64,000 nucleotides of DNA, taken from NCBI RefSeq assembly GCF_057098645.1, contig NZ_CM169472.1; one strand, written 5' to 3'. Position numbers: made by a program. Position 1 is the stretch's first letter. Each line of letters starts with the position of its first letter. Positions 15,001 to 18,000 of the stretch are shown piece by piece.

Positions 15001-18000
15001 ATCCTGCCTGAGTCACTTTACGACCTGCCGCTTTTAATGCGGCGGTAAGCGCGGCTTTATCTCCCTCAAATAACGGCAACGGTGTAATGCCAGAAGGGGG
15101 ATTACGTAGCACAATCAATCCGAAGTCCCACGGCGCGGCTGCGGGAGGTATAATCCAACCATCCCCATCTGCTTTTAACCTCTTTCCCAGTGTCGGATCA
15201 ACGCGGCCTTCTATGTCGTGGATGTCATAGCGCCAAAGACCTTTATTTGACACAAAACGCAGCGCCACTGCTTTATCGGCTTTACCCTTTGGAGGTGTCA
15301 ATAAACAGTGTCCTGCCGTTAATGCCAGATTGGGTGCAATCAGCGTCGCCGTACATAAATTGCCGCTGGCCGTTTCCAGTTGCCCAACCGCATCCCACGG
15401 TGATTGGGTCGTGTCATTCACTGGCACACGATCATCATGACCAAAAAACAGGGTGCTAACCTCATCGTTTGCCGATTTGGCAACGTCTGGTTTATCTGCA
15501 AACACAAAAGCAGACGTCAAACTAATTGCACCCAACACTACAGCAATGGTTGTACGCATATCACACTCTGGTGGGTAATTATGATTATTAAAAGCAAACC
15601 CTCATAAATACTATAGACGGGACGGGATGAAAGTGGGAGTAAAATCAGATAACTACAGTCAGGAAAGATAAAAACGGGCGGCAATCAGTGCGCATAAAAT
15701 AAGGATGATAAGAATGAACTCAAAGCGATAACGGCCCACCATACTACCCTCCGCTAAAGGCGGTGCTAAACGTTACCCGCTTAGCACCGTAATTTTCAGG
15801 CGCGAGGGGGCGCGCCAGCATTACTGTTGAAAACTTATGCTGCGGGTTGTGCAGCAGGTTTTGCCGGTTGCTGATGGCTGTGTTTCCCGGCGTGTTTCTT
15901 CGCTGCCTGCGCTTTTTGTTCAGGGGCTTTCTGTTCAGCTTTCGTATTTTTATGATGCTTTTTAGCCGCCTGCGCTTTCTGGGCAGGTGCTGCTTTATGC
16001 TGTTTTTTATGATGTGTAGTTTTCGCCGGCGCTGCTTTGGTGGTCGTCGCAGTCGGAGCAGGTGTGGTCGCAGTCTCTGCAGCAAAGGCGGCAGAAGACA
16101 GACCCATAGCAGCGGCAACAACCAGAGCTAATACTTTTTTCATTGTCATACCCTCAATTTGTTTTTTCATTTAACCCCACTGCGGGGCCGTTGAAATAAC
16201 TATATCCCTGGGAATGGCAGACTTCCGTGAGTGGTTGGTTTCAGCGTGTAACGATATGTACAAACGCTGAATAAATTACAGCGTTGATAATAACGTATTG
16301 TGACTTAAGGAAAATTTAGCTACCAATAATAGTAGTCTTGATCGGGTTAACTATTTTACTACTTACAAAGCGGTAGAATAACTGCGCATCAGTAATAAAT
16401 GACACACAGCAAAATGAATCCGTTTATTTGGGTACTTATAATCCTGATGACGCTAGACGCGCTGCGGGAATTGGCTGGCGCTTCGTCTATTTTAGGATGG
16501 CTATTAACGTTGGTTTGAGCAGGCAATAAGTCCGGACGGGTATTTACCGCAGTCCGGACTTATTTTTCAGGCGTGCAGACGACGATGCAAACGCGTCCCG
16601 ACCAGCAGAGCAATGACCAGCATCAGAGCAATAAATGCGCCGACGCCGTTCCAGCCATAGTTATGCCAGAAAACACCACCCAGCGTCCCGGCAATACTCG
16701 ACCCCAGATAGTAACTGAACAGATACAGCGAGGAGGCCTGGCCTTTAGCGCGTTTTGCACGGGGGCCGATCCAGCTGCTGGCAACTGAGTGGGCTGCGAA
16801 GAATCCTGCTGAGAAGAGTAACATTCCGGCAAAGATCAGCCATAGAGAGCTGAATAAGGTCATCAGTAAACCAAACAGCATAACCCCCGTCGAAAACAAC
16901 ATCACTGGACCACGCCCATAGCGGGTGGTCATGGTTCCGGCTTTGGGTGAGCTCCATGTACCGGTCAAATAAGCCAGCGATAATAAGCCAACCACGGCCT
17001 GACTGACATGCCAGGGGGAGAGCATCAACCGATAGCCGATGTAATTAAACAGCGTGACGAACGACCCCATCAGCAAAAAGCCTTCTGCGAACAATAACGG
17101 TAATCCCCGGTCACGCCAGTGCAGACGAAAGTTGATAAACAACGACTTAGGTCGCAGCGAAGTCGGGCGAAAATGGCGTGATTCCGGGAGGATTTTCCAG
17201 AACATCAACGCCGAGGCTAGCGCGAAACAACCGATAGCCGCCAGAGCAATTCGCCAGTTGAAAAAGTCCGTGAAGACACCACTAATTAAGCGTCCGCTCA
17301 TGCCGCCAATTGAGTTGCCGCTGATATACAACCCCATCGAAAAGGCCACGAAACTGGGATGGATTTCCTCGCTAAGATAAGTCATGCCAACAGCTGCCAC
17401 GCCACTTAACGAAAGCCCAATCAAGGCGCGCATAATCAAAATGCCGTGCCAGCTGGTCATCATTGTCGAAAGTAACGTACAAATGGAGGCCAACAGTAGC
17501 GCCGTGACCATCACTGGTTTGCGACCAATGGCATCGGATAGGGGGCCAGTAAACAGCAAACCAATAGCCAACATCGCCGTGGAAATGGACAGTGAAATAC
17601 TACTGTTCGCGGGCGTTAAGCCAAACTCCTGCGAAAGCACCGGAAGGATAGGCTGCACACAATAGAGAAGTGCAAATGTTGCCAGTCCGGCAGAGAACAG
17701 CGCCAGGGTGACGCGCATAAATTGCGGCGTACCGCGTTTAATAAATTGATTTGGCTGAGAAATGCTTTGCTTGTCAGTGTCGCTTGCCGGAGCGCCATCA
17801 ACAGTTGTAGTACGGCTCACTTGAAATCCTTGCTAAATATGCCTGTGGATCAGGCTTATACATAGGTTAGGAAAATCGAATTGTTCTGTCTAATATATTA
17901 ATAATCTCAAATAAGATGTTTTAAATATGAATATTGAACTTCGTCATCTGCGCTACTTTGTTGCGGTTGCGGAAGAACTGCATTTCGGGCGCGCCGCTGC

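What the first reader, a model, noticed from the sequence alone, without database searches (positions are those of the whole stretch)
16414..16569. Unannotated 34-codon hydrophobic ORF with a strong plus-strand terminator between asr and ynfM
A perfect 9-bp stem (AAGTCCGGA / TCCGGACTT) followed by a T-run is oriented for plus-strand termination, yet both flanking genes are on the minus strand. Just upstream is an ORF (16414-16518) encoding MNPFIWVLIILMTLDALRELAGASSILGWLLTLV. This could be an unannotated small membrane protein or sRNA, although the ORF has no clear Shine-Dalgarno sequence.
Basis: seen in the sequence. Interest (0 to 1): 0.35.

Follow-up and report, generated by a model that had tools for sequence, protein, structure and literature searches.

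The report
Conserved small membrane-peptide gene beside ynfM
The 34-codon ORF is a real, conserved small gene for a hydrophobic single-helix peptide with its own terminator; NCBI already files it in a named family (KPN_01571), but the reference E. coli K-12 annotation lacks it and its function is untested.

Summary
An ORF at 16414-16518 (+) is followed by a strong hairpin (16525-16564) and a T-run that ends in the stop codon of the convergent ynfM gene.

The ORF is a genuine coding gene. It lies just 3' of ynfM in 26 of 80 Enterobacteriaceae species and is open in all 27 sequences compared. Substitutions show clear codon periodicity, with pN/pS 0.32 in frame against 0.87-2.2 in the other frames. 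It passes the curated NCBIfam model NF033695 (63 bits, cutoff 35).

So "unannotated" is only partly right. The MG1655 record lacks the gene, but PGAP annotates it in thousands of E. coli genomes, with a start five codons too early.

AlphaFold2 predicts one helix (pLDDT 92), hydrophobic, with a conserved D15/R18/E19 patch.

The hairpin shows compensatory changes within Escherichia. It looks like a bidirectional terminator shared with ynfM, with the stronger tail on the small ORF's strand.

Divergent family members sit directly upstream of a LysE-type exporter, or in Cronobacter next to no transporter.

I found no published transcript, 3'-end or ribosome-profiling evidence. Function is unknown; my best guess is a small membrane protein that modulates a larger membrane protein.

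Verdict: real, already catalogued, uncharacterised.

The parts
16374..16379 (+). Predicted sigma-70 -10 hexamer TAGAAT (within GGTAGAAT). There is no convincing -35. Inferred, not shown.
   Evidence: Invariant in six Escherichia lineages amid variable flanks, with TAATAT at the same place in Salmonella. A -10-like hexamer lies 28-55 nt upstream of the ATG in all 32 family loci examined. The consensus promoter scan found nothing that met its two-hexamer criteria.
16386..16413 (+). Inferred 5' untranslated leader (~28 nt, A-rich, no Shine-Dalgarno). The start position is a prediction from the -10.
   Evidence: Unpaired in both the MFE and centroid folds of the predicted 181-nt transcript. A at -3 in 28 of 32 family members.
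16414..16518 (+). Small protein gene, 34 codons plus stop. Member of NCBIfam NF033695 (KPN_01571 family, 'trnsprt_adja_30').
   Evidence: NF033695 63.3 bits against a cutoff of 35, with profile positions 1-29 aligned from this Met. Orthologues in 26 of 80 species. pN/pS 0.32 and the only frame open in 27 of 27. AF2 predicts a single helix over residues 3-33, pLDDT 91.6.
16399..16413 (+). Five extra codons (MTHSK) in PGAP's 39-aa gene call. Judged not to be part of the protein.
   Evidence: PGAP CDS. The extension is absent outside Escherichia, is GTG in E. albertii and is blocked by TAA in E. whittamii. The family profile starts at residue 6.
16525..16564 (.). Terminator hairpin: 13-bp outer stem plus inner pairs, lying between the two convergent stop codons.
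   Evidence: -24 kcal/mol, z -4.9 on + and -5.9 on -. Three of 13 pairs have double compensatory changes among six Escherichia lineages. An energy-based scan recovers it in all Escherichia.
16560..16567 (+). U-tract (TTATTTTT) for termination of the small-ORF transcript. Its last T is the first base of the ynfM stop-codon complement.
   Evidence: Direct reading. Tail TTTTTCAG called on the small-ORF strand in all Escherichia, while the ynfM-strand tail UUAUUGCC is below threshold in the window.
16567..17820 (-). ynfM (MFS transporter). This is the convergent neighbour whose 3' end shares the hairpin.

Best explanation
This is a free-standing small gene.

Inferred transcript: a sigma-70-type promoter whose -10 is TAGAAT (16374-79) gives a ~180-nt monocistronic mRNA. 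Its short, A-rich, unstructured leader lacks a Shine-Dalgarno sequence.

Shown by comparative evidence: the 34-codon ORF (16414-16518) is protein-coding and under purifying selection.

Predicted product: one ~31-residue hydrophobic alpha-helix with a conserved MNPF N-terminus and a conserved D15-x-x-R18-E19 polar patch. It most likely sits in the inner membrane.

Termination: the conserved hairpin and T-run at 16525-16567 end the transcript. Because ynfM ends at the same hairpin from the other side, the element probably works as a bidirectional terminator. It is stronger in the small-ORF direction and keeps the two convergent transcripts from running antisense into each other.

Inferred by analogy only: the peptide acts by binding a larger membrane protein. 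The neighbouring exporter YnfM is the first candidate, and in other genera a LysE-type exporter.
For: Coding:
- The ORF is present just 3' of ynfM, on the opposite strand, in 26 of 80 YnfM-anchored species. HMM scores are 59-74 bits, and nothing else within +/-3 kb scores above 10 bits.
- The flanks cannot be aligned between genera, yet the ORF is conserved.
- Entropy by codon position is 26/9.4/39.5.
- pN/pS is 0.32 in frame, against 0.87 and 2.21 in the shifted frames and 0.55-2.24 in the antisense frames. It is the only frame open in 27 of 27 sequences.
- It passes the NF033695 curated cutoff, as do members from all other contexts.

Free-standing unit:
- The same family occurs at ynfM (including Salmonella), upstream of a LysE exporter, and in Cronobacter without a transporter neighbour.
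- A -10-like hexamer lies upstream in each case.

Structure:
- AF2 predicts a helix over residues 3-33, pLDDT 91.6.
- GRAVY is 1.0-1.5 and the best 19-residue Kyte-Doolittle window scores 1.66.

Terminator. The start codon is unpaired in the predicted transcript fold.
Against: I found no experimental support.
- The ORF is absent from the held supplements of Stringer 2021, the acid-stress Ribo-seq study, PIRT-seq and the Salmonella small-protein census.
- There is no TSS or 3' end in SMRT-Cappable-seq.
- There is no Term-seq 3' end on either strand at MG1655 1670953-1671000.
Several of these files were truncated when stored, and the gene may be silent in standard media.

Other points against:
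- There is no -35 element and no SD.
- The ORF is dispensable: it is lost from 54 of 80 ynfM loci and broken by a 13-bp deletion in Nissle 1917, with other rare truncations.
- Transporter adjacency holds in only two of four contexts, which is not statistically compelling.
- The polar patch makes the hydrophobic span a borderline canonical TM segment.
Confidence: 0.8

Rival explanations
1. The peptide is a dedicated accessory or regulatory subunit of metabolite exporters (YnfM here, a LysE-family exporter in Enterobacter ludwigii, Lelliottia and Huaxiibacter). It would work like AcrZ with AcrB or MgtS with MgtA. This is a more specific version of the best explanation.
For: It is always the immediate convergent neighbour of ynfM where present. 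The divergent 42-44-aa members lie 12-120 nt upstream of a LysE exporter on the same strand. In Huaxiibacter only 49 nt without a terminator separate it from the exporter's SD. Genera with the LysE-linked copy lack the ynfM-linked one. NCBI's curators named the model 'trnsprt_adja_30'.
Against: At ynfM the orientation is convergent, so there is no co-transcription. 54 of 80 species keep ynfM without an adjacent peptide gene. Cronobacter and another lineage carry it with no transporter next door. Transporters are common enough that two of four contexts could be chance. No interaction data exist.
Confidence: 0.25
2. The hairpin is simply the ynfM terminator and the ORF is a chance open frame in its 3' flank, with no gene on the plus strand.
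For: ynfM's stop abuts the hairpin. A hairpin follows ynfM in most genera, and in Kosakonia and Phytobacter the T-run is on the ynfM strand. No plus-strand transcript has been reported.
Against: The ORF is conserved across genera while its flanks are not, with codon periodicity, pN/pS 0.32 and 27 of 27 sequences open. The same peptide is conserved at loci without ynfM. In Escherichia, Salmonella and two Citrobacter the better U-tract is on the small-ORF strand.
Confidence: 0.04
3. The transcript is a regulatory small RNA, or a dual-function RNA whose base-pairing activity matters as much as the peptide.
For: It would be a short (~180 nt) independent transcript with a strong intrinsic terminator and a poly-U tail of the kind Hfq binds. 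It has no SD in E. coli. Its 3' end is complementary to the ynfM 3' end.
Against: There is no Rfam match at E <= 1. Conservation is at the amino-acid level, with near-saturated synonymous sites. The leader and 3' hairpin sequences are not conserved between genera. Apart from the terminator, the transcript is not unusually structured (z -2.0).
Confidence: 0.07
4. The peptide is a type I toxin-like membrane-damaging peptide, kept silent by poor translation and by convergent or antisense transcription from ynfM.
For: It is a small hydrophobic helix with embedded charges. It has no SD, a stable 3' hairpin, a narrow taxonomic range, several genomic contexts and frequent loss or truncation.
Against: There is no match to any Pfam toxin family, PADLOC or PHROGs. 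It is single-copy and syntenic across many genera. Purifying selection acts along the whole peptide. There is no long structured 5' UTR sequestering the start and no candidate antitoxin RNA.
Confidence: 0.06

Closest known systems
NCBIfam NF033695 'trnsprt_adja_30' (KPN_01571 family protein; e.g. WP_001299090.1)
   Same: It is a member: 63 bits against a cutoff of 35, aligned from the MNPF start. It has the same ~30-residue core and the same position next to a transporter gene.
   Different: Escherichia members carry a 4-residue C-terminal extension (34 aa against 30). PGAP's E. coli gene model adds five N-terminal codons that the family does not support. The family has a name only; I found no paper on it.
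Small single-pass inner-membrane proteins of E. coli that modulate larger membrane proteins: AcrZ-AcrB, MgtS-MgtA, MgrB-PhoQ, and SamT (YdgU)-RstB encoded 670 nt away
   Same: Size, a predicted single hydrophobic helix, and an independent small gene restricted to enterobacteria. SamT and MgrB are documented as helical membrane peptides that bind a sensor kinase (PMC13425233). The other examples are from my own knowledge.
   Different: No sequence similarity. No demonstrated translation, localisation or partner. It has an unusual conserved acidic/basic patch (D15, R18, E19) in the middle of the helix.
Bidirectional intrinsic terminators between convergent genes
   Same: A GC-rich stem is flanked by an A-tract on one side and a T-tract on the other, placed between two converging stop codons 51 nt apart. 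The stem is maintained by compensatory changes.
   Different: It is asymmetric. The U-tract is 7 of 9 on the small-ORF strand but only UUAUUGCC on the ynfM strand. No mapped 3' ends are available to show that it works in either direction.
Type I toxin peptides (TisB, Ibs, Ldr, ShoB, Hok)
   Same: A short hydrophobic helical peptide with poor translation signals, a strong 3' hairpin and a patchy distribution.
   Different: There is no homology to those families and no antisense RNA partner was identified. It is single-copy and syntenic, and its short leader is unstructured.

Membership tests
NCBIfam NF033695 (KPN_01571 family, trnsprt_adja_30) | Score above the curated whole-protein cutoff of the family HMM | tested here: met
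   63.3 bits against a cutoff of 35, E 1.2e-17. My own profile gives 67 bits in the window, with the next best at 6 bits.
NCBIfam NF033695 (KPN_01571 family, trnsprt_adja_30) | Peptide of about 30 residues that begins at the conserved MNPF motif | tested here: met
Orthologues are 30 aa, and 34 aa in Escherichia.
NCBIfam NF033695 (KPN_01571 family, trnsprt_adja_30) | Gene lies next to a transporter gene (implied by the model name) | tested here: met
   It is convergent with the MFS gene ynfM, with the stop codons 51 nt apart. The feature is not universal: Cronobacter members have no transporter neighbour.
Intrinsic (Rho-independent) terminator | Stable GC-rich stem-loop | tested here: met
   -24 kcal/mol, z -4.9 and -5.9, with 0 of 200 shuffles as stable. 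Three of 13 pairs are compensated.
Intrinsic (Rho-independent) terminator | U-rich tract immediately 3' of the stem | tested here: met
   The plus strand reads UUAUUUUUCA. The minus strand reads only UUAUUGCC.
Intrinsic (Rho-independent) terminator | RNA 3' ends map to the U-tract in vivo | tested here: inconclusive
   Adams et al. Term-seq tables list no 3' end on either strand between MG1655 1669718 and 1672076. Both genes may be unexpressed in those conditions.
Small inner-membrane modulator proteins (AcrZ/MgtS/MgrB/SamT type) | Single hydrophobic alpha-helix long enough to span the membrane | tested here: met
   This is a prediction only. AF2 gives a helix over residues 3-33, pLDDT 91.6. 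The Kyte-Doolittle 19-residue maximum is 1.66 and GRAVY is 1.48.
Small inner-membrane modulator proteins (AcrZ/MgtS/MgrB/SamT type) | Peptide is synthesised in the cell | tested here: inconclusive
   Not listed in four ribosome-profiling or genetic surveys whose supplements I could search. Purifying selection implies translation.
Small inner-membrane modulator proteins (AcrZ/MgtS/MgrB/SamT type) | Physical interaction with, and functional effect on, a larger membrane protein | not testable with these tools
   There is only genomic adjacency to YnfM or a LysE exporter.
Type I toxin-antitoxin | Homology to a known toxin family, or a cognate antisense RNA | tested here: not met
   No match in Pfam, PADLOC or Rfam.
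Type I toxin-antitoxin | Toxicity on overexpression | not testable with these tools
   Needs an experiment.
Base-pairing small RNA | Conservation of RNA sequence or structure rather than of a reading frame | tested here: not met
   Conservation follows codon positions (26/9.4/39.5). The leader and 3' hairpin are not conserved between genera. There is no Rfam match.
Leader peptide / attenuator uORF | A regulated gene immediately downstream on the same strand | tested here: not met
   In the window the ORF is followed by a terminator and then the antisense of ynfM. The feature is met only in the LysE-linked relatives.

The most novel reading that the evidence does not exclude
The KPN_01571 peptide is a previously unstudied small-protein partner of metabolite exporters. 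It would bind YnfM (MFS) in Escherichia, Salmonella and Klebsiella, and a LysE-family exporter in Enterobacter ludwigii, Lelliottia and Huaxiibacter. That would make it a modulator that has moved between loci of two structurally unrelated exporter families, with its conserved D15/R18/E19 patch as the interaction surface. It would also add a bona fide gene to the E. coli K-12 reference annotation.
Probability: 0.2. Interest if true: 0.6.

Novelty: already known. Interest (0 to 1): 0.33.

Why it matters
E. coli K-12 has the most curated bacterial genome, yet its reference record lacks this gene. The gene shows an unambiguous protein-coding selection signature across Enterobacteriaceae and already has a curated family model at NCBI.

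It was not reported in the ribosome-profiling surveys I could search. If so, it is probably silent under standard conditions, and it illustrates what such surveys can miss.

It gives a concrete, cheap experimental target: a 34-aa peptide with clear predictions for start, stop, transcript ends and candidate partners (YnfM, whose physiological role is itself poorly defined).

The analysis also corrects PGAP's start codon for the Escherichia members.

Tried and rejected
- **PGAP's 39-codon start (16399).** Rejected in favour of 16414.
- **SamT lead.** The 2026 SamT paper looked relevant ('asr', small peptide) but concerns ydgU downstream of asr, a different ORF.
- **Junction-spanning BLAST to count the Nissle 13-bp deletion allele.** Uninformative, because the tool joins the two flanking pieces in undeleted genomes. 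I fell back on evenly spaced samples: 1 of 60, and 39 of 40 ungapped full-length ORF matches.
- **First terminator control with a perfect-stem finder.** Discarded, because it missed the E. coli hairpin itself.
- **Energy-based redo.** It works, but the comparison of species with and without the small ORF (13/27 vs 20/54) does not discriminate. Other convergent genes occupy the site where the ORF is absent.
- **Consensus promoter scan.** Found nothing. The promoter proposal rests only on a positionally conserved -10.
- **Antisense 45-codon ORF (16389-16526, minus strand).** Rejected as a mirror artefact.
- **Literature and supplement searches.** Searches for the family name, the peptide string and MG1655 coordinates returned nothing.
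- **PDB profile search.** Gave only insignificant hits.
- **AF2 run on a YnfM-linker-peptide fusion.** Considered but not run. The tool returns no coordinates or PAE, so docking could not be judged.
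Full report
**Where we are.** The window is an E. coli chromosome segment, 100% identical over the asr-ynfM spacer to O157/O55/O145 strains. The gene order is mdtI, ydgD, ydgU, asr, [finding], ynfM, ynfL. Window position w maps to MG1655 position 1687519 - w without indels.

**Observation.**
- The ATG is at 16414 and the TGA at 16516-18, giving the 34-residue peptide quoted.
- The perfect 9-bp arms are at 16528-36 and 16553-61. They extend to a 13-bp stem (16525-37 / 16552-64) with a few inner pairs.
- The tail TTATTTTTCA (16560-69) ends in the reverse complement of ynfM's stop codon.
- The hairpin folds at -24 kcal/mol on either strand, with z-scores of -4.9 and -5.9. 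None of 200 shuffles folds as well.
- No Shine-Dalgarno sequence precedes the ATG.
- The consensus terminator scan did not list the hairpin, but only because its loop limit is 8 nt.

**Is it annotated?** The answer is partly.
- The curated MG1655 record has no gene between ynfM and asr.
- RefSeq/PGAP records of essentially all other E. coli genomes carry a CDS there. It is named 'KPN_01571 family protein' or 'hypothetical protein'.
- The spacer is present in 5,422 of 5,426 complete genomes.
- The peptide scores 63 bits against NCBIfam NF033695 ('trnsprt_adja_30'), whose cutoff is 35.
- Both the 34-aa and 39-aa forms are in public protein collections.
- Pfam, PADLOC, PHROGs, Rfam and the PDB have nothing.

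**Is it really coding?** I anchored on the neighbouring gene rather than on the ORF. This retrieved 80 YnfM loci, one per species, across Enterobacteriaceae.
- A family member lies immediately 3' of ynfM on the opposite strand in 26 of them. These include Escherichia, some Citrobacter, Kosakonia, Phytobacter, Klebsiella, Raoultella and Pluralibacter.
- Profile scores are 59-74 bits, and nothing else in the +/-3 kb scores above 10 bits.
- The ORF is 30 codons long everywhere except Escherichia (34) and C. amalonaticus (35).
- The MNPF ATG is invariant. PGAP's five-codon extension exists only in Escherichia: it is GTG in E. albertii and blocked by TAA in E. whittamii.
- Flanking DNA cannot be aligned between genera, but the ORF is conserved.
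- Column entropy by codon position is 26 / 9.4 / 39.5.
- pN/pS is 0.32 in frame (JC-corrected about 0.13). The two shifted frames give 0.87 and 2.21, and the antisense frames give 0.55-2.24.
- It is the only frame open in all 27 sequences.

This is the signature of a translated gene under purifying selection, not of an RNA element or a chance ORF.

**The family.**
- A profile search of 1.84 billion representatives finds only 48 at E <= 1e-3, all enterobacterial where named.
- Salmonella has the same asr / small ORF / ynfM layout.
- Divergent 42-44-aa members (Enterobacter ludwigii, Lelliottia, Huaxiibacter) lie at a different locus: clsA, yciY, small ORF, LysE-family exporter. There the ORF is on the same strand as the exporter and 12-120 nt upstream. 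In Huaxiibacter only 49 nt without a terminator separate it from the exporter's AAGGAGG-GTG start.
- Genera with this form lack the ynfM-linked copy in my panel.
- Cronobacter carries a 30-aa member in the yebY-rsmF region with no transporter beside it. One unnamed lineage has it next to LysR and MCP genes.
- All of these pass the NF033695 cutoff.
- A -10-like hexamer lies 28-55 nt upstream of the ATG in all 32 loci examined: TAGAAT, TAATAT, CATAAT, TAAACT, TATGAT and similar. A at -3 is the only strongly conserved single position.

So the gene behaves as a self-contained unit of promoter, short leader, ORF and hairpin that has changed neighbours.

**The product.**
- AlphaFold2 with the family alignment predicts one continuous helix over residues 3-33, with mean pLDDT 91.6.
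- The peptide is strongly hydrophobic. GRAVY is 1.0-1.5 and the best 19-residue Kyte-Doolittle window is 1.66.
- It has invariant M1, N2, P3, L11, A16 and G22, and nearly invariant D15 and R18.
- The lineage that lost D15 (to G) also lost R18 (to Q). This fits an i/i+3 pairing but is probably a single event.

**The terminator.**
- A GC-rich hairpin lies between the two convergent stop codons in almost every genus, but the hairpins are not homologous to one another.
- Within Escherichia, 3 of 13 stem pairs show double, pair-preserving changes.
- An energy-based scan gives a canonical hairpin plus U-tract on the small-ORF strand in all Escherichia and two Citrobacter. Direct reading of the alignment shows the same arrangement in Salmonella. 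The ynfM-strand tail is weaker, and is below threshold in the window.
- In Kosakonia, Phytobacter and C. amalonaticus the U-tract is on the ynfM strand. In Klebsiella and Raoultella there is little U-tract on either side.
- I read the E. coli element as a bidirectional terminator shared by the convergent pair, with the better tail for the small ORF.

**Expression.**
- The predicted -10 (GGTAGAAT, 16372-79) is invariant in six Escherichia lineages. It has TAATAT at the same place in Salmonella.
- There is no credible -35, and the consensus promoter scan found nothing.
- The predicted 181-nt transcript leaves the leader and AUG unpaired.
- I found no experimental evidence. The ORF is not in the held supplements of Stringer 2021, the acid-stress Ribo-seq study, PIRT-seq or the Salmonella census. 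SMRT-Cappable-seq lists no TSS or 3' end here, and Term-seq lists no 3' end at the hairpin on either strand.
- Some of these files were truncated when stored, and neither ynfM nor the small ORF may be expressed in standard media. These negatives are therefore weak.

**Dispensability.**
- The gene is missing from 54 of 80 ynfM loci.
- In Nissle 1917 a 13-bp deletion leaves a 22-aa stub while the hairpin is retained. That allele appears in about 1 of 60 evenly sampled genomes.
- 39 of 40 sampled genomes have an ungapped full-length ORF match.
- Other rare truncations exist.

**Mechanism.**
- Shown: a conserved coding ORF and a selected hairpin.
- Predicted: a single hydrophobic helix and an own promoter.
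- Inferred by analogy with AcrZ, MgtS, MgrB and the neighbouring SamT/YdgU (PMC13425233): the peptide sits in the inner membrane and binds a larger membrane protein.
- YnfM or a LysE-type exporter is the obvious candidate, at about 0.2-0.25 probability.
- Adjacency to a transporter in two of four contexts is suggestive but could be chance.
- Rivals are a pure ynfM terminator with a spurious ORF, an sRNA, a type I toxin and a leader peptide. Each is disfavoured by a specific test listed in the report sections.

**Verdict.** The feature is real. It is catalogued by NCBI but absent from the K-12 reference annotation and, as far as I could search, from the literature. Its function is unknown. Interest is modest.

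Noticed in passing
window 15659-15742 (-): ydgU, a 27-aa membrane peptide encoded downstream of asr. It was recently renamed samT and shown to bind the RstB sensor kinase (PMC13425233). So two small hydrophobic-peptide genes flank asr within about 700 nt.
   Followed up: partly
window 16175-16187: CCCCACTGCGGGG is a perfect short palindrome in the asr leader region. It is invariant in six Escherichia lineages and in Salmonella while the surrounding bases vary. Its role is unknown.
   Followed up: no
window 16247-16262: TGTAACGATATGTACA (minus strand TGTACATATCGTTACA) is conserved from Escherichia to Salmonella, apart from one variable central base. From memory it resembles the RstA box of the asr promoter. 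It lies about 125 nt upstream of the small gene's predicted -10, so the two divergent promoters are close.
   Followed up: no
L083 (E. coli Nissle 1917), equivalent to window 16473-16485: A 13-bp deletion (GGCGCTTCGTCTA) frameshifts the small ORF to a 22-aa stub, MNPFIWVLIILMTLDALRELAF. The hairpin is kept and the T-run gains one T. PGAP still names the stub a KPN_01571 family protein.
   Followed up: partly
L084, L087, L089 (Huaxiibacter, Lelliottia, Enterobacter ludwigii): locus position 4001 to about 4135: Longer (42-44 aa) family members lie between yciY and a LysE-family exporter gene, on the same strand as the exporter. In E. ludwigii an extra 136-aa ORF with no Pfam match lies between them.
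   Followed up: partly
family alignment A1, columns 15 and 18: D15 to G co-occurs with R18 to Q in the Pluralibacter-like sequences (L036, L065, P0114). This suggests a D15-R18 pairing along the helix, but it is probably a single evolutionary event.
   Followed up: no
window 16389-16526 (-): A 45-codon antisense ORF overlaps the small gene and is open in 24 of 27 orthologues. Its pN/pS is 0.55 and its most variable codon position is the wrong one, so it is a mirror effect of the sense frame and not a gene.
   Followed up: yes
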